Virus record (IMG/VR): IMGVR_UViG_3300025418_000011 | DNA: 64,000 bases | Direction: 5' to 3' (one strand) | DNA from: a virus | Part shown: piece by piece, positions 3,947 to 31,782 of the stretch | Layout: every line of letters starts with the position of its first letter | Position numbering within the stretch: position 1 is the first letter of the stretch | The notes under the pieces: generated by a model | The model's database searches: none | What the model was told of the DNA's origin: nothing | The model's input: the letters and a program-made list of their open reading frames with translations, nothing else | Position numbers and translations under genes: made by a program

Positions 3947-5353
3947 ATGGCTAACGTTATTTCAGGATTATACAGCAACATTCCTAGCCCTGCGGCTAAC
4001 ACAGGAATATATTACTATGCCACGGATACAGGTGTTTATTGGTTAGCTGATGGTGATAAATGGATTCAAAGTACCCCTGATCTAGACACCTCCGGTACTC
4101 CTGTTAGTTATGATGGAGGATTGGCTGTACACGTAGTAAACGCTAATACCATACCTGTGGGGTATCCCCCTACTCAATTAGATGCTTTTGGTAGATTGAG
4201 AATCTCTACTCCGTACACAATGTTTGATTCTTCTTACAGATACAAAGACAATGGTTTATGGAGCACACTAACTGCCTCTAATGGTGCGGCTACCTTTAAT
4301 GCTAACCAAGGGCTTGTGGATCTAACTGTGGATAGTTCTTCGGGCTCTTCTGTTATCAGAGAAACAACAAAGGTCTTTTCCTATCAGCCTGGTAAATCAT
4401 TGTTGGTTTTAAATACATTTGTAATGGCTCCTAAAGCCACAAACCTGAGACAAAGAGTAGGTTATTTTGGTGCAAATAACGGGTATTACTTTCAGCAAGA
4501 CGACAGCACGGTAAGCTTTGTAGAGAGAACCTCTGTATCTGGTTCTTTGGTTGAAAATATAATAACACAGGCTCAGTGGAACGGAGATAAGTTAGACGGC
4601 ACAGGAGCTTCTGGGTTAATTTTAGATACCACAAAAGCCCAGATCATGTGGATGGATTTAGAGTGGTTGGGTGTTGGTACGGTCAGAGTTGGCTTTGTGA
4701 TTAATGGAAAATTCATAGTTTGCCATAGTTTTAACCATGCCAACCTGATAGCCACCACATATATAACCACAGCTAGCTTGCCTTTGAGATACGAAATCAC
4801 TAACAAAGCCGCCACATCAGGGTCTAGCACACTGAAGCAAATATGCTCTACAGTGAGCTCTGAGGGCGGCTATGAATTAAGAGGGCTACAGCAGTCTATT
4901 TGCACCCCTATCACAACCGCTAAAACATTAACCACAGCGGGAACATATTATCCCGCGGTATCTATACGCCTCAAATCGACTTTTCCTGACGCTATTGCTA
5001 TTATTTCAGCAATAAGCATTATAGGAAAAACATCAGCTTACTATAATTGGCAGTTGGTAGCCTCAGGAACTACCACAGGGGGAACTTGGACAAGTGCAGG
5101 CACTAACTCGTGTGTAGAGTATAATTTAGGAGGAACCTCTTTTACCGGGGGTAGGATATTGGGTAGTGGTTATTTTGGAACTACCACACAATCAAGAATA
5201 TCTGTGGATATATTAAAAGATGCATTATTTTCTAACCAATTAGAAAGAGATGGTTTGAATGGTGTTTATTATGAAATAACATTAATCATAGCCGCAGACA
5301 CAAATTCTAGTAATGTTTATGGCTCTTTAGATTGGGAAGAAATTAGCAGATAG
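3947..5353 (+). CDS. Putative tail/virion structural protein
   Basis: 468 aa, Thr/Ser/Gly-rich beta-type composition. DAFGRLRISTP motif recalled from phage structural proteins. N-terminal module is shared with 5418..5894. Confidence 0.6.
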   Translation: MANVISGLYSNIPSPAANTGIYYYATDTGVYWLADGDKWIQSTPDLDTSGTPVSYDGGLAVHVVNANTIPVGYPPTQLDAFGRLRISTPYTMFDSSYRYKDNGLWSTLTASNGAATFNANQGLVDLTVDSSSGSSVIRETTKVFSYQPGKSLLVLNTFVMAPKATNLRQRVGYFGANNGYYFQQDDSTVSFVERTSVSGSLVENIITQAQWNGDKLDGTGASGLILDTTKAQIMWMDLEWLGVGTVRVGFVINGKFIVCHSFNHANLIATTYITTASLPLRYEITNKAATSGSSTLKQICSTVSSEGGYELRGLQQSICTPITTAKTLTTAGTYYPAVSIRLKSTFPDAIAIISAISIIGKTSAYYNWQLVASGTTTGGTWTSAGTNSCVEYNLGGTSFTGGRILGSGYFGTTTQSRISVDILKDALFSNQLERDGLNGVYYEITLIIAADTNSSNVYGSLDWEEISR

Positions 5354-27655: not shown

Positions 27656-28321
27656 TTACAACTCGCTTTGAGGATAGGCTATGAGTATCTCCAACTTATC
27701 TCTGTATATTCCTTTATAGTCGTTTTTCAGGGCTTCCCAAACTTCTAATCTTTGAGATAAATCCATCTTTGATAGGTTGGACATATATCCAGAAAGAATA
27801 AACTCCTTGTATTTTTCTTCTGGTAATTTAAATCTTAGAGTTATTGTGTATATCTCTGTAGCATAGCCTAATCTGTTAAATTTTATTCTATTTTGATTAG
27901 TGTCTTCTAAAGGATTTGCAGAGCCGTGAATTTCCTCAAAAGGCATCTGCATAATCACTATGGTAGCTTTCGGATATTTTTCAGCTATGTGGAAAGGAGA
28001 AGAGATTAAATGAAAAACTTGTTTATATATAACTACATTAGGGGCTATGCCTTTATATTTCTCTACACCTACTTTCTGAAATTTAAATGTTTTTAATACT
28101 CTGTAATCTTCTATATCAATACCTATTACATTATGAGTATAGTTCTTGAGCGAGTCTAAAAACTCGCCGGTACCCGTTCCTACATCTAAAACTAACCCTG
28201 TAGGAAGAACTCCTTCTTGGGTGAGTAATCTCCCTATTTTTGCACCCCAAAGCTTCTCTCTGCCTGTTATGGCGCAAAACAATTTCCAACTATTCCAAGT
28301 GATTTCGCCCGGATTGTTCAT
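27656..28321 (-). CDS. Class I SAM-dependent methyltransferase
   Basis: VLDVGTGTGEF, IGID, QVFHLI; ATG at 28321 preferred. Confidence 0.8.
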   Translation of the reverse strand: MNNPGEITWNSWKLFCAITGREKLWGAKIGRLLTQEGVLPTGLVLDVGTGTGEFLDSLKNYTHNVIGIDIEDYRVLKTFKFQKVGVEKYKGIAPNVVIYKQVFHLISSPFHIAEKYPKATIVIMQMPFEEIHGSANPLEDTNQNRIKFNRLGYATEIYTITLRFKLPEEKYKEFILSGYMSNLSKMDLSQRLEVWEALKNDYKGIYRDKLEILIAYPQSEL

Positions 28322-28383
28322 TACCAATTATACTAAACATAGGCATATATAAACAAGGCTGTTATATTTAAGGCAATATTCTA

Positions 28384-29763
28384 TTAATTTAAATTATAGT
28401 TATCTAATATATTAAAATCAATTTTACCGTTAGCAGGATAATATGCTCCTGGGTAATTTATTTGGCTATTAGGGTGTTCTTCGAAAACTTCTTGCAGTAA
28501 AGGTTTAAATAACCCCATAGCAATCCAACAAGCACTAGATTGATTTCCTACAAAAAAGTCTGCTCCCGCTATTGCCCTGGCTACATGATAGCAATCTTTT
28601 GTTATATAATATTCTATATTGCCATAAGCTTCACAAAATTCAGAGTGCTCTGCTTCTGTGCCAACGAATAATGCCTTATCTCCAAAATAATTAAATACCT
28701 CAACCCATTTAAAATTATCATTTCTATACCTAGTAGTTCTATTGAATATCACTCTACCTTTTGTATTTGGATCTTTTGGTACATTTAACCAAGGCTCATT
28801 AACTATAAATTTACCTGATGCTCTACAGACTACGTTTAAGTATCTGGCTTGCGCATCTATTAAAGTAATTCCTGGCTGGTAGCATTCTCTCCATGGATGT
28901 ACATCATAGTCTACAGCTAGCTCATTCTCACCGAAATAAACTTCAATATCTTGAGACTCTAGCAATGGCTTTATAGAGTCATATTTATTGCCAGCCATCG
29001 GTTCAAACCCCGAAGGACCATCTTTTATTTGTATGGTGGTTCCTTCTAAATTTTTAAAAATGGGCAGAAAAGCAATTATGTCACCTATATATCCGGTGTG
29101 TGAAAATACTTTACGGTTTAAGATATTGTTTTTTTTAAGCTTTCCTAAATATTCGTCTCTAGGAAAAATATCTATATAGTGATTTTTATTTGAGGAGTAT
29201 AAATTTAATGGTGTGTTAAAAGAAGTATCAAGCAACCAAAACTCACAATAGAGCCTGTCACGATAATTTTCTATTTTGGGTAATTTTCTAATGTGGCTGG
29301 CGTTTGCCCACCACATATTTCCAGAGTAGTGCTTTTTTGGATCTTCTTGTAAATTAACTCCAACGGTGTCGTTTTTTTGCAAACCATCTAAACAATCTTT
29401 AAAATTTTCTATGACAAAGTATTCCATATACTCTCTCCAGTGATTAACAGGATTATGCAAGGGGTGTGTAACTCCCTTACTGTGTAGATATAGAATTTTG
29501 CCTTCGTTAAATTTACAGAAGTCTGATATAAAATTTAAAGTATTAAACTCTCCGTGATAGTTATAATTGAATTCTATTACGTTAATTTTTGAATCATGTA
29601 TGTTTAAAGCCTGGCGATATAGCTCTGTATTGGGGCCGTTTAAACTTAAGTAAATTTGATCTAGTTCGTCGTATAAGCCACTGCTTTTAATTTTTTTTAA
29701 AGTTTGATTAAACAAATCAATTGCATTATTCACGCAAAACATATGATAAAAAACAGTAATCAT
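28384..29763 (-). CDS. Two-domain glycosyltransferase-like protein (N-terminal GT-like; C-terminal GT9/heptosyltransferase-like)
   Basis: N: LYLHSKGVT, HYSGNMWWAN. C: GYIGDII, FVGTEAE, IAGADFFVGNQS. Confidence 0.7.
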   Translation of the reverse strand: MITVFYHMFCVNNAIDLFNQTLKKIKSSGLYDELDQIYLSLNGPNTELYRQALNIHDSKINVIEFNYNYHGEFNTLNFISDFCKFNEGKILYLHSKGVTHPLHNPVNHWREYMEYFVIENFKDCLDGLQKNDTVGVNLQEDPKKHYSGNMWWANASHIRKLPKIENYRDRLYCEFWLLDTSFNTPLNLYSSNKNHYIDIFPRDEYLGKLKKNNILNRKVFSHTGYIGDIIAFLPIFKNLEGTTIQIKDGPSGFEPMAGNKYDSIKPLLESQDIEVYFGENELAVDYDVHPWRECYQPGITLIDAQARYLNVVCRASGKFIVNEPWLNVPKDPNTKGRVIFNRTTRYRNDNFKWVEVFNYFGDKALFVGTEAEHSEFCEAYGNIEYYITKDCYHVARAIAGADFFVGNQSSACWIAMGLFKPLLQEVFEEHPNSQINYPGAYYPANGKIDFNILDNYNLN

Positions 29764-29780
29764 ATTTCTGCAGTTAAAAA

Positions 29781-30551
29781 TTAATCCAGCAAGCTTATAT
29801 TTTTCGGCAAATAATCGCCGTTCTCAATAAACTCGTATTTCTGCTCGTCTCTAAAAAATAAATCTTTTCCTTCTTTGATTAACTTTTTAATTGTTTCTGG
29901 ATCTGTATATTTAGAGTTGTTGTATTCCTGATGTGAGAAGTTCTTTATTTTATCTATTATATAATTCTCATCTCCAAAATACGAGAAATGCCAACCTCCT
30001 GACTTGTAATCTCCAGGTTGTCCTATTTTAGATATAGACCATCTGCTATTTCTAACAATCTCAAAGTTATTATTAAAATGGGTATTGAAGGTATTTATGC
30101 TGGTTATGACTGTACCTGCCCATTTATTAATATTTCTACATTTATAATTATAATAATAAAAATTATGATAAAAGGCCAAAGCTCCTACCATGCCTGAAGA
30201 TTTAATCTGCTTTAATACTGTTGTGTCAGGTATTTCATCAACATCAGACAGCATTACCAAGTCTGCTTTATTTGGTGTTAATTGATTTAAACCGCTAGCT
30301 AAATATGTTCGCTGCTTTGCTTCATTTTCCCAGGCGTTAGAGGTAGGAGGGAACGTGTAAGGCCTATAAATTATTTTTTCTTCAAAAGACTTAAAGTTAT
30401 CTATATTGAACCTAATTGGCTTTTTGCTTCCAGAAAACCCAGTGTCTGCCTCTACAATTACAAAGTAATCCACTACTTCGTTTAACTCATGCAACCTAAA
30501 GGTTAACATTTTTTCTTCCCCGTTATATAGAAAGCAATCGAATAGTCGCAT
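29781..30551 (-). CDS. Glycosyltransferase GT17 (MGAT3-like)
   Basis: FDCFLYNGE..ML..RL.EL..VVDYFVIVEA, SDVDEIP, GWHFSYFG. Confidence 0.9.
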   Translation of the reverse strand: MRLFDCFLYNGEEKMLTFRLHELNEVVDYFVIVEADTGFSGSKKPIRFNIDNFKSFEEKIIYRPYTFPPTSNAWENEAKQRTYLASGLNQLTPNKADLVMLSDVDEIPDTTVLKQIKSSGMVGALAFYHNFYYYNYKCRNINKWAGTVITSINTFNTHFNNNFEIVRNSRWSISKIGQPGDYKSGGWHFSYFGDENYIIDKIKNFSHQEYNNSKYTDPETIKKLIKEGKDLFFRDEQKYEFIENGDYLPKNISLLD

Positions 30552-30560
30552 ATTAAAAAT

Positions 30561-30644
30561 TGGAGCCTGAGGTGAGATTCGAACTCACGAAGCTTGCGCG
30601 TCGGTTTACAAAACCGATCCTATTGGCCACTAAGGGACTCAGGC
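30561..30644 (-). tRNA. trnT: tRNA with Thr(UGU) anticodon on a class II (Tyr-like) scaffold; encoded CCA
   Basis: GCCTGAG-TC-CCT-TAGTGGCCAAT-AGG-A-TCGGT-TTTGTAA-ACCGA-CGCGCAAGCTTC-GTGAG-TTCGAAT-CTCAC-CTCAGGC-T-CCA; all four stems pair. Confidence 0.9.
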
Positions 30645-30645
30645 G

Positions 30646-31659
30646 TTATTTAATAGTTATAATCGAATTATTTTTTCCTACAAGTATTTTCTGCGGTGTG
30701 TGTTCATTTAATTGAATGGTTTCCGGGATTTCTGAAACTTCTGGACTCACGACGGGTTGGAGAGCTGGCTCTTCAACTTTTGGAGACTGAGTAGCTTCAG
30801 GTTCTACTGGAGCTGTATGGATTTCTTCCATAACAACATCTTCATTTAGATCTTCACTTTTTTCTACCTCTCTCTCTATAGGCTCTCTGTAGCAAACATT
30901 TTCACTTTTTTTGATTTTCTCCCTTTCTTCTACCAATTGATTAAGGGCCAAAATTAGAGAAACCGCCAGTGGATCAAACACAAAAACCAGTGAGAGAATA
31001 AACCATTTTACCGCTGTATCTACATCAGTATTCAACGCCTTTGCTACAAATGTAAAGGTGCCAACATCTGTCTTTGTATTTATTGCAGAAGATGTTTCTG
31101 TTTTTTTAATTTCTAGCTCTCCTATCTTTTTGCGTAATTCAGAAGTCTTGGTTTCTTTTTCTGCTATTTCTTTATCTGCATCTGCTATGGCTTTATATGC
31201 CTGCTCTCTAGGGGCCTTGTATTTACCTGCAGCAGTTACACGGGCCTCCTGGTCCTTTCTAAGGGCGTTTAAGCTTTCTATTCTGATCTGCCCGGCAGAA
31301 AGCTCGTCTTGCAATATTTTTACCTGAACATCGTAGCCCTTTAGCTCATTTTCGTAACCAACGGCCACACCTCTATGCTCCTCATAGGCCCTGGTTAAAA
31401 AACCAAATATTCCCAGAGATGTAATCATCATCAGTATACTCACAGCCAAGCAAAGATATATTTTTAGAGATAGAGAGATCTTGCTCCATTGCCTATGTAG
31501 AAAACTCGCGGCAACAAGTTTGCCTATCTCTAAGGACGAGGCCATTACACCCACAGATAGTGCACTGCCAGCAAAAAGAAGAGTTATTCCTTTAATGGAA
31601 AAGAAGGCTGCACAGCCAGCAATAAAAAGGGCGGACAGGGTTACTATAAAAATAAACAT
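30646..31659 (-). CDS. Membrane protein with coiled coil (conserved phage family)
   Basis: AAFFSIKGITLLF, LEIGKLVAAS, long coiled coil, WFILSLVFVFDPLAV. Confidence 0.7.
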   Translation of the reverse strand: MFIFIVTLSALFIAGCAAFFSIKGITLLFAGSALSVGVMASSLEIGKLVAASFLHRQWSKISLSLKIYLCLAVSILMMITSLGIFGFLTRAYEEHRGVAVGYENELKGYDVQVKILQDELSAGQIRIESLNALRKDQEARVTAAGKYKAPREQAYKAIADADKEIAEKETKTSELRKKIGELEIKKTETSSAINTKTDVGTFTFVAKALNTDVDTAVKWFILSLVFVFDPLAVSLILALNQLVEEREKIKKSENVCYREPIEREVEKSEDLNEDVVMEEIHTAPVEPEATQSPKVEEPALQPVVSPEVSEIPETIQLNEHTPQKILVGKNNSIITIK

Positions 31660-31717: not shown

Positions 31718-31759
31718 AAAAAAATTATAGGCCGGGGCTACGATTGCCCCGACCTATAA
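31718..31759 (-). terminator. Intrinsic terminator
   Basis: - strand TTATAGGTCGGGGC-AATCGTA-GCCCCGGCCTATAA followed by a T-run. Confidence 0.8.
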
Positions 31760-31782
31760 CTTCTAACCACCAACCCCGAATT

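What the first reader, a model, noticed from the sequence alone, without database searches (positions are those of the whole stretch)
30561..30644. tRNA-Thr(UGU) built on a tRNA-Tyr-like class II body: an apparent one-base anticodon register shift
Seen in sequence: a 3-bp D stem with loop TAGTGGCCAAT, a 12-nt variable arm CGCGCAAGCTTC, and T-loop TTCGAAT. These parallel E. coli tRNA-Tyr (GAGCGGCCAAA; CGTCATCGACTTC). The anticodon loop TTTGTAA, however, centres TGT (Tyr is CTGTAAA), and the acceptor has Thr-type G1-C72, C2-G71 with U73. Established: bacterial tRNA-Thr is normally class I. Inference: an identity-switched tRNA that could serve ACA codons while evading host anticodon nucleases, or be charged by a non-Thr synthetase. 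It lies 1 nt from the upstream stop codon inside the GT operon. Long-arm Thr tRNAs may have precedent; I could not check.
Basis: partly seen in the sequence, partly recalled or inferred. Interest (0 to 1): 0.75.

Follow-up and report, generated by a model that had tools for sequence, protein, structure and literature searches.

The report
Phage threonine tRNA with extra arm
This uncultured 182-kb phage carries an intact threonine tRNA (anticodon UGU) with the long extra arm that textbooks reserve for Leu, Ser and Tyr tRNAs. It belongs to a widespread phage family, it replaces an ordinary threonine tRNA found at the same spot in the sister phage, and it most likely still inserts threonine.

Summary
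An 84-nt tRNA with encoded CCA lies on the minus strand at 30561-30644. It has anticodon UGU, a 3-bp D stem, a 12-nt variable region (a 2-bp stem capped by GCAA), G1-C72, C2-G71 and U73.

It is not a one-off or a sequencing error. One restrictive pattern found 58 IMG/VR phage contigs with 81-90-nt tRNA-Thr(UGU) genes, and their stems covary strongly. Cultured phages carry them too, including coliphage HildyBeyeler/Bas33. This scan has met the same family before on other DNA.

New here: the closest sister phage has an ordinary 75-nt tRNA-Thr(UGU) at the same locus. Its acceptor stem, U73, CCA and anticodon loop are almost identical to the window's; only the D, variable and T parts differ. T5 (75 nt) and Bas33 (87 nt) show the same swap.

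ACA is the phage's commonest Thr codon (43%). It aligns to Thr in relatives as often as the other three Thr codons do.

The "Tyr body with a one-base register shift" and "identity switch" readings are not supported. A73 and U35 (Tyr), G2-C71 and G73 (Ser) and A73 (Leu) are all missing.

Best reading: a ThrRS-charged ACA decoder. Why it has the arm is unknown; escape from nucleases that cut the anticodon stem (PARIS AriB, P2 OLD) is plausible but untested. I found no paper describing the design.

The parts
30561..30644 (-). tRNA-Thr(UGU), 84 nt including encoded CCA; 7/5 cloverleaf with a long variable region
   Evidence: ARAGORN; Rfam RF00005 at 52.9 bits; fold; family covariation
30608..30610 (-). 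Anticodon UGU (positions 34-36) inside loop UUUGUAA. It is followed by A37 A38 A39 C40 C41.
   Evidence: Sequence; the loop is YUUGUAA in all 49 distinct family members
30589..30600 (-). Variable region CGCGCAAGCUUC: C, a 2-bp stem GC/GC closed by a GCAA tetraloop, then UUC
   Evidence: L046 has the compensatory variant GA(GCAA)UC; L012 and L006 keep GC/GC with other four-base loops (GAAA, GAUA).
30619..30635 (-). D arm: 3-bp stem CCU/AGG with the 11-nt loop UAGUGGCCAAU (class II-type, 13:22 unpaired)
   Evidence: all three D-stem pairs covary in the family
30646..31659 (-). Upstream ORF of 337 aa with no Pfam or PHROG match. Its stop codon is 1 nt from the tRNA 5' end.
   Evidence: The sister phage G001 has a homologue at 66.6% identity, directly upstream of its class I tRNA-Thr.
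29781..30551 (-). Downstream glycosyltransferase family 17 gene (256 aa), starting 9 nt after the CCA. It belongs to a cassette absent from the relatives.
   Evidence: Pfam PF04724, E = 4e-31; no match in G001-G005
28384..29763 (-). 459-aa ORF with no family match; second gene of the stretch that G001 lacks at this locus
27656..28327 (-). Methyltransferase-like ORF (223 aa). Synteny with the sister phage resumes here.
   Evidence: Pfam, below cut-off; 57.9% identity to L095:5836-6477
31720..31764 (-). Terminator-like hairpin (19 pairs plus a T run) upstream of the 337-aa ORF. It probably marks the start of the transcription unit that contains the tRNA.
   Evidence: consensus scan only

Best explanation
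This is a functional phage tRNA-Thr(UGU). ThrRS charges it with threonine, and it decodes ACA, the phage's commonest Thr codon. It is built on a class II-like body: a 3-bp D stem plus a 12-nt variable region that forms a mini-hairpin. It belongs to a widespread, mostly phage-borne family of long-arm tRNA-Thr(UGU) genes. In this phage lineage it has replaced the ancestral 75-nt class I tRNA-Thr(UGU) at the same locus. The identity-bearing modules (acceptor stem, U73, anticodon stem-loop) were kept, and the D, variable and T body was exchanged. The gene is probably co-transcribed with the flanking ORFs and cut out by RNase P and 3' processing.

Shown: the gene, its structure, the family, covariation, the orthologous replacement, codon usage and codon meaning.

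Inferred: charging by ThrRS, expression, and any benefit of the arm. My favoured guess for the arm, at about 30%, is that it hinders host defence nucleases that cut the anticodon stem of tRNA-Thr(UGU), or that it marks the tRNA as phage-own.
For: 1. Intact tRNA: ARAGORN and Rfam agree, and all universal tertiary nucleotides are present.

2. A family under selection. The pattern scan found 58 IMG/VR contigs, each with an 81-90-nt Thr(tgt) gene. Across 47 distinct sequences, 98.7% of cells pair and 15 of 20 pairs show compensatory change; 0 of 500 shuffles reach this, and slid controls pair only about 40%.

3. Thr determinants are conserved: G1-C72 in 43 of 47, C2-G71 in 44 of 47, and G35 U36 A37 in all. 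The review PMC9976931 states that Thr identity rests on acceptor pairs plus the anticodon, with position 73 weak.

4. Orthologous replacement. The sister phage G001 (92% aa identity in the RNAP-like gene) has a 75-nt class I tRNA-Thr(UGU) right after the homologue of the same upstream ORF. Its acceptor is GCCUGUG/CUCAGGC with U73 and CCA, and it shares the GGUUUUGUAAACC segment. G004 and G005 carry the same class I gene.

5. The same swap occurs in cultured coliphages: T5 tRNAT is 75 nt, while HildyBeyeler/Bas33 has an annotated 87-nt tRNA-Thr at the syntenic site.

6. Codon use and meaning. ACA makes up 43% of Thr codons, this is the genome's only Thr tRNA, and the tRNA set consists mostly of NNA decoders (10 of 13). 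ACA aligns to Thr at 65% of 220 sites in G001, against 65%, 69% and 60% for ACT, ACC and ACG. In more distant relatives it is 51% of 1001 sites, against 52% for ACT, with no Tyr, Ser or Leu excess.

7. Determinants of the other class II synthetases are absent.

8. Background for the arm hypothesis. Host tRNA-Thr(UGU) is a prime target of PARIS AriB, which cuts between positions 40 and 41 (preprint 10.1101/2025.02.04.636281), and of P2 OLD (PMC12445682). In both papers phage tRNA-Thr(UGU) rescues. The window tRNA reads U36-A-A-A-C-C41, which lacks the UAAUC|A site.
Against: - No expression or charging data exist for this gene.
- ThrRS is a class II synthetase that faces the variable-loop side of tRNA, so an arm there could affect charging. 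This rests on general knowledge and was not tested.
- The variable hairpin here has only 2 bp, and about 7 family members have unstructured 11-12-nt loops, so the 'arm' may be a tolerated insertion with no function.
- The arm is not needed for nuclease escape: the T5 tRNA-Thr that neutralises PARIS is class I.
- The window tRNA still has a paired CGG/CCG (CNG-type) motif in its anticodon stem, the motif reported for P2 OLD.
- Long arms also occur in Glu, Gln, Pro, Gly, Met and Ile tRNAs of some phages, so they are not confined to known nuclease targets.
- The host is unknown.
- The family set was selected with a fixed T arm and D-loop motif, so its breadth is underestimated and T-stem covariation cannot be judged.
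Confidence: 0.8

Rival explanations
1. Identity-switched tRNA. The class II body makes TyrRS, SerRS or LeuRS charge it, so ACA is read partly as Tyr, Ser or Leu. This would resemble the nematode nev-tRNAs, which are V-arm tRNAs with Gly or Ile anticodons that LeuRS charges with Leu.
For: It has a class II-like D arm and a variable region with the same format as tRNA-Tyr. There is precedent for V-arm tRNAs with class I anticodons being mischarged (nev-tRNAs, PMC3333845). SerRS and LeuRS ignore the anticodon.
Against: U73 and G35 replace the two critical Tyr determinants, A73 and U35. C2-G71 is a reported antideterminant for E. coli SerRS, G73 is missing, and the arm has only 2 bp. A73, needed for Leu, is missing. 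The acceptor and anticodon modules equal those of the orthologous class I tRNA-Thr. ACA is 43% of Thr codons and aligns to Thr as often as the other Thr codons do, so mischarging would damage the whole proteome.
Confidence: 0.04
2. The gene's main role is not decoding. It might act as a decoy or competitive inhibitor of tRNA-targeting defence nucleases. Alternatively it might serve as a recombination or attachment site at the edge of a mobile gene cassette.
For: The AriB preprint raises the possibility that over-expressed viral tRNAs inhibit AriB by competition. Synteny with the sister phage breaks exactly at the tRNA 3' end, where a GT17 plus 459-aa cassette is present only in this phage. A near-identical tRNA sits in unrelated gene contexts in L023, L050 and L009.
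Against: Thr identity pairs, the full anticodon loop with U33 and A37, the encoded CCA and strong covariation in all testable stems are what a translated tRNA needs, not merely a decoy or an att site. It is the genome's only Thr tRNA, and it serves the most-used Thr codon.
Confidence: 0.08
3. It is an artefact or a decaying gene: a tRNA-Tyr with a sequencing error in the T-run, or a pseudogene.
For: None beyond the T-run itself.
Against: The genome has its own separate tRNA-Tyr(GUA). The same loop and stem occur in four independent metagenome contigs and in the sister's class I allele. The family covaries.
Confidence: 0.01

Closest known systems
Canonical class I tRNA-Thr(UGU), here the orthologous 75-nt gene of sister phage G001 (L095:5098-5172); also phage T5 tRNAT and E. 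coli thrU
   Same: It has the same anticodon loop UUUGUAA, the same inner anticodon stem, an almost identical acceptor stem, U73 and an encoded CCA. It sits at the same genomic position after the same upstream gene.
   Different: The window tRNA has a 3-bp D stem with an 11-nt loop instead of 4 bp, a 12-nt variable region instead of 5 nt, and a different T arm.
Long-arm tRNA-Thr(UGU) of other phages: 87-nt tRNA-Thr of Escherichia phage HildyBeyeler/Bas33 (MZ501074:78774-78860), Aeromonas phage phiA047, Pseudomonas phages vB_PpS_SYP and HPP-Temi, and 58 IMG/VR contigs
   Same: They share the anticodon, G1-C72 and C2-G71, the 3-bp D stem, an extended variable region and the 7/5 architecture. vB_PpS_SYP, phiA047 and the 58 IMG/VR contigs also share the D-loop AGUGG motif and the T arm GUGAG-UUCGAAU-CUCAC. 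L023 and L050 differ from the window tRNA by 1 nt in 84.
   Different: The window's arm is among the shortest (2 bp). Bas33 has a different D loop and T arm, a 3-bp arm and A73. GenBank annotates these genes simply as tRNA-Thr, or not at all. I found no paper that discusses the arm.
Bacterial class II tRNA-Tyr (E. coli tyrT/tyrU; the phage's own 85-nt tRNA-Tyr)
   Same: It shares the 3-bp D stem, a D loop of the same length containing GGCCAA, and a variable region with the format N-stem-loop-stem-UUC.
   Different: It has U73 rather than A73, G35 rather than U35, and no GUA anticodon. The acceptor, anticodon stem and T arm are unrelated. Its D arm is no closer to phage Tyr genes than to other isotypes.
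Phage tRNAs that neutralise tRNA-cutting defences: T5 tRNA-Lys, -Thr and -Asn against PARIS AriB; phage tRNA-Thr(UGU) against P2 OLD
   Same: It is the same isoacceptor, Thr(UGU), which is a prime target of both nucleases. It differs from the E. coli cleavage-site sequence at positions 39-41.
   Different: The tested T5 tRNA-Thr is class I, and its resistance is ascribed to anticodon-stem substitutions rather than to an arm. Neither paper mentions a variable arm. The host and its defences are unknown for this phage.
Nematode nev-tRNAs (PMC3333845) and allo-tRNAs (PMC5389517)
   Same: All are V-arm-bearing tRNAs that carry anticodons of class I amino acids.
   Different: nev-tRNAs have Leu identity and allo-tRNAs have Ser identity, and allo-tRNAs have 8/4 or 9/3 acceptor branches. 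The window tRNA is 7/5 and keeps Thr determinants.

Membership tests
tRNA (Rfam RF00005) | Cloverleaf with conserved tertiary nucleotides, scoring above the gathering threshold | tested here: met
   52.9 bits against a cut-off of 29; ARAGORN agrees
tRNA-Thr (ThrRS substrate) | Anticodon G35 U36 (NGU) | tested here: met
   UGU at positions 34-36; invariant in the family
tRNA-Thr (ThrRS substrate) | Acceptor pairs G1-C72 and C2-G71 | tested here: met
   Present here; 43 of 47 and 44 of 47 in the family. Rule taken from PMC9976931 and from general knowledge of the E. coli identity set.
tRNA-Thr (ThrRS substrate) | Class I body (4-5-nt variable loop, 4-bp D stem) | tested here: not met
   12-nt variable region and 3-bp D stem. 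This feature is typical of the isotype but is not a known ThrRS determinant.
tRNA-Thr (ThrRS substrate) | Aminoacylation with threonine | not testable with these tools
   Indirect support only: orthologous replacement and ACA meaning Thr
Bacterial tRNA-Tyr | A73 discriminator and U35 (GUA anticodon) | tested here: not met
   U73 and G35; rule from PMC9976931
Bacterial tRNA-Tyr | Long variable arm with a 3-bp D stem | tested here: met
   Same format as the phage's own tRNA-Tyr, but the stem has only 2 bp
Bacterial tRNA-Ser | G2-C71, G73 and a long variable helix | tested here: not met
   C2-G71, U73 and a 2-bp stem; rules
Bacterial tRNA-Leu | A73 discriminator | tested here: not met
   U73
allo-tRNA / tRNA-Sec-like | 8/4 or 9/3 acceptor/T branch | tested here: not met
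   7-bp acceptor and 5-bp T stem; definition from PMC5389517
Phage long-arm tRNA-Thr(UGU) family (operational) | UGU anticodon, Thr-type acceptor, 3-bp D stem with AGUGG loop, variable region of at least 10 nt, 7/5 branch | tested here: met
   Aligns throughout with 46 other distinct members. Rare in bacterial genomes: 6 hits, all on contigs of 26 kb or less from metagenome-assembled genomes, and three of them inside phage-like tRNA islands.

The most novel reading that the evidence does not exclude
The extra arm is an anti-defence (or self-marking) adaptation. By projecting next to the 3' strand of the anticodon stem, it keeps phage tRNA-Thr(UGU) from being cut by anticodon-arm nucleases of the PARIS-AriB or OLD type, or by a phage nuclease that destroys host tRNA. 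ThrRS and the ribosome still accept the tRNA. Phages would therefore swap class I and long-arm alleles at the same locus as host defences change.
Probability: 0.3. Interest if true: 0.75.

Novelty: new variant of a known kind. Interest (0 to 1): 0.45.

Why it matters
Textbooks and identity reviews restrict long variable arms in bacteria to tRNA-Leu, -Ser, -Tyr and -Sec. A conserved phage family of long-arm tRNA-Thr shows that the class I/class II boundary is not fixed by isotype.

This window adds a natural matched pair: the same locus, acceptor and anticodon arm, with and without the arm. T5 and Bas33 form a parallel pair that can be handled in E. coli. With these pairs one can test directly whether the arm affects ThrRS charging, ribosome use, or resistance to nucleases known to attack tRNA-Thr(UGU). 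If the arm has no effect, the gene is just an ordinary codon-supplementing phage tRNA with an odd shape.

Tried and rejected
1. Sequencing error or shifted Tyr anticodon: rejected by independent copies and by the sister's class I loop.

2. Recent chimera with the phage's own tRNA-Tyr: its D arm matches at 12 of 20 and its T arm at 11 of 17 positions by eye, and the anticodon stem is unrelated. Relatives G004 and G005 do have Tyr and class I Thr 1 nt apart, but neither resembles the long-arm body.

3. 'Tyr-like D arm' tested against 10 phage tRNA-Tyr genes: mean similarity 0.38, which is mid-table. A comparison of the 5' halves was uninformative.

4. T4-like cyanophage origin: only one ORF matches S-RIM12, so the phage is not a cyanomyovirus.

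5. Synteny of the near-identical copies L023, L050 and L009: no shared flanking proteins.

6. Relatives found through the GT17 gene: two short contigs, neither with a tRNA.

7. Literature: eight full-text searches and reading of the PARIS, AriB, OLD, Schlafen, allo-tRNA, FaRel2 and van den Berg papers found no mention of a long-arm tRNA-Thr.

9. The host could not be identified.

Full report
**What is there.** ARAGORN finds one tRNA in the window, on the minus strand at 30561-30644. It is Thr(tgt), 84 nt including an encoded CCA. Rfam's tRNA model scores it 52.9 bits against a gathering score of 29. Read 5' to 3' it has:
- acceptor GCCUGAG/CUCAGGC (G1-C72, C2-G71, C3-G70)
- U8 and C9
- a 3-bp D stem CCU/AGG around an 11-nt loop UAGUGGCCAAU
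- A26
- anticodon stem UCGGU/ACCGA with loop UUUGUAA
- a 12-nt variable region CGCGCAAGCUUC
- T arm GUGAG-UUCGAAU-CUCAC
- discriminator U73 and CCA

The variable region can form only a 2-bp GC stem closed by a GCAA tetraloop. The MFE fold predicts that hairpin. The upstream ORF (30646-31659) stops 1 nt before G1. The downstream glycosyltransferase-17 gene (29781-30551; Pfam PF04724, E = 4e-31) starts 9 nt after the CCA.

**The genome.** The window lies in a single 182,120-bp virus record at 39.9% G+C. The record has 13 tRNAs and a tmRNA and phiKZ/Arash-type split RNA-polymerase genes. It is not a T4-like cyanophage: only one ORF matches cyanophage S-RIM12. This tRNA is the only Thr tRNA. The set consists mostly of NNA decoders, 10 of 13 (UGU, UAU, UAA, UCU, UUU, UUC, UUG, UAC, UGG, UGA). 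It matches a genome in which ACA is 43% of Thr codons, AUA 43% of Ile and AGA 53% of Arg.

**Not a one-off.**
- BLAST of the tRNA against cultured phages hit unannotated 83-84-nt Thr(tgt) genes in Pseudomonas phage vB_PpS_SYP and Aeromonas phage phiA047. It also hit an 85-nt tRNA-Cys(GCA) in PG7-like Karamvirus phages with the same D-loop motif and T arm.
- One restrictive pattern (AGTGG, gap, TTGTAA, a gap long enough to force a variable region of at least 10 nt, then CGTGAGTTCGA) hit 58 IMG/VR contigs. Every one has an ARAGORN Thr(tgt) of 81-90 nt.
- The same pattern hit only six contigs among the genomes of 185,579 prokaryotic species. All six come from metagenome-assembled genomes and are 26 kb or shorter. 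Three of them sit in phage-like tRNA islands.
- In an alignment of 47 distinct members, 98.7% of cells in the acceptor, D, anticodon and T stems form standard pairs. Fifteen of 20 pairs have compensatory changes. No shuffle out of 500 reaches this, and slid controls pair about 40%. The T stem was fixed by the pattern, so it says nothing.
- Most variable regions consist of 1 nt, a 3-5-bp stem, a GNRA-type or three-base loop, and 2-4 nt. About seven are unstructured 11-12-nt loops.
- In the window's subgroup the 2-bp stem is GC/GC. L046 has the compensatory GA/UC.
- L023 and L050 differ from the window tRNA by one base. L009 and L046 are close. Their flanks share no genes with the window, so the gene moves between phages.

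**Identity.**
- G1-C72 occurs in 43 of 47 members and C2-G71 in 44 of 47. The loop YUUGUAA occurs in all. The discriminator is U in 38 of 49 and A in 10.
- According to the identity review PMC9976931, Thr identity rests on acceptor pairs plus the anticodon, and position 73 matters little. Tyr identity critically needs A73 and U35. Bacterial Ser identity uses G1-C72, G2-C71, G73 and the long arm, and C2-G71 is a listed antideterminant for E. coli SerRS. Leu needs A73.
- The window tRNA has U73, G35, C2-G71 and a 2-bp arm. It therefore carries the Thr set and lacks the key determinants of all three class II synthetases.
- The 'register shift' is an illusion. Any UGU anticodon followed by A37 and A38 reads GUA one base on. 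The class I Thr(UGU) genes of the sister phages have the identical loop. The anticodon stem bears no resemblance to that of the phage's own tRNA-Tyr.
- The Tyr resemblance is real only as a format: D-loop length, GGCCAA, and the N-stem-loop-stem-UUC layout. Against 10 phage tRNA-Tyr genes the D arm is no closer than to other isotypes.

**The new and most informative result is orthologous replacement.**
- Relatives were found through the 995-aa RNAP-like ORF. None holds the long tRNA.
- All three relatives where a Thr tRNA was found (G001, G004, G005) hold a 75-nt class I Thr(UGU).
- In the closest relative, G001 (92% aa identity), that gene lies 10 nt after the stop of the homologue of the same 337-aa upstream ORF (66.6% identity). 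It is about 15 kb from the RNAP gene, as in the window.
- The two alleles share the upstream flank and the acceptor (GCCUGUG against GCCUGAG, over an identical 3' strand CUCAGGC). They also share U73, CCA and the GGUUUUGUAAACC segment. The D arm, variable region and T arm are unrelated.
- G004 and G005 carry the same class I body, so class I is the ancestral state of this lineage.
- Downstream, synteny breaks exactly at the tRNA 3' end. The GT17 gene and a 459-aa ORF are present only in the window phage, and homology resumes at the methyltransferase-like ORF.
- I checked the same phenomenon in cultured coliphages. T5 tRNAT(UGU) is 75 nt. Escherichia phage HildyBeyeler/Bas33 has an annotated 87-nt tRNA-Thr(ACA) at the syntenic position.

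**Codon meaning.** ACA codons of the window phage align to Thr in G001 at 65% of 220 sites (ACT 65%, ACC 69%, ACG 60%). In more distant relatives they align to Thr at 51% of 1001 sites (ACT 52%). There is no excess of Tyr, Ser or Leu. A mischarging tRNA that served 43% of Thr codons would be very costly.

**Why the arm?** This is inference.
- Host tRNA-Thr(UGU) is a prime target of PARIS AriB, which cuts between positions 40 and 41 at U36-AAUC|A41, and T5 tRNA-Lys, -Thr and -Asn rescue (preprint 10.1101/2025.02.04.636281).
- It is also a prime target of P2 OLD, which cuts both strands of the anticodon stem at a paired CNG motif, and phage tRNA-Thr(UGU) rescues (PMC12445682).
- The variable arm emerges right beside the 3' strand of that stem, so steric shielding is conceivable.
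- The preprint reports that Bas33, which encodes tRNA-Thr(UGU), needs only T5 tRNA-Lys to escape PARIS. Since Bas33's Thr gene is the 87-nt form, this suggests the long form works in E. coli. That link is mine, not the authors'.
- Against the idea: T5's protective tRNA-Thr is class I. The window tRNA lacks the AriB site but keeps a CGG/CCG motif. Long arms also occur in Glu, Gln, Pro, Gly, Met, Ile, Lys, Asn and Cys tRNAs of some phages. Conversely, several phages, including this one, carry class-I-length tRNA-Leu.
- The arm may be a broader phage tRNA design feature, or neutral.

**Literature and earlier notes.** Eight full-text searches and the papers read found no description of long-arm tRNA-Thr. 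The nearest published analogues are the nematode nev-tRNAs, which LeuRS mischarges with leucine (PMC3333845), and the allo-tRNAs (PMC5389517). Earlier agents of this scan have met the same family repeatedly on other DNA and reached the same main reading. I re-tested the points I use.

**Verdict.** This is a real, intact, conserved phage tRNA-Thr(UGU) with a class II-like body, and almost certainly a threonine-inserting ACA decoder. The Tyr register-shift and identity-switch readings are not supported. The function of the arm is open.

Noticed in passing
Same genome, outside the window: G000:C1:169084-169159 (minus strand): tRNA-Leu(UAA) of only 76 nt, with a 5-nt variable loop and A73: a class-I-length Leu tRNA. 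Similar 76-78-nt Leu tRNAs (UAA, UAG, CAA, GAG, AAG) recur in at least nine of the related phage contigs.
   Followed up: partly
Same genome, outside the window: G000:C1:171984-172076 (minus strand): tRNA-Ile(UAU) of 93 nt with a 7-bp variable arm. Aeromonas phage phiA047 (L003:1742-1831) and L021 have comparable 90-92-nt Ile(UAU) genes.
   Followed up: no
L002:1491-1575 (Enterobacter phage PG7 and about 25 Karamvirus relatives): An annotated 82-85-nt tRNA-Cys(GCA) with U73, a 13-nt variable arm (C-GGG-UAU-CCC-UUC), and the same D-loop motif and T arm as the long-arm Thr family.
   Followed up: partly
L021 (IMG/VR contig of 344 kb): One giant phage carries long-arm versions of Glu, Lys, Ile(UAU), Ile(GAU), Met, Gln and Thr tRNAs (86-92 nt), mostly with GNRA-capped arms.
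   Followed up: no
window 28384-30551 compared with L095:5173-5835: The GT17 gene plus a 459-aa ORF form a cassette that is absent from all five relatives. Its boundary lies exactly at the tRNA 3' end.
   Followed up: partly
window 3947-5353: A virion structural protein (PHROG 1645) is 61% identical to one in Synechococcus cyanomyoviruses, although no other ORF of the phage matches the 41-kb S-RIM12 region fetched around that gene. This looks like a horizontally shared structural gene.
   Followed up: partly
L095:5098-5172 (sister phage G001): The class I tRNA-Thr has a U6-U67 mismatch in an acceptor stem that otherwise equals the window's long-arm acceptor. This may be a trace of recombination between the two allele types.
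   Followed up: no
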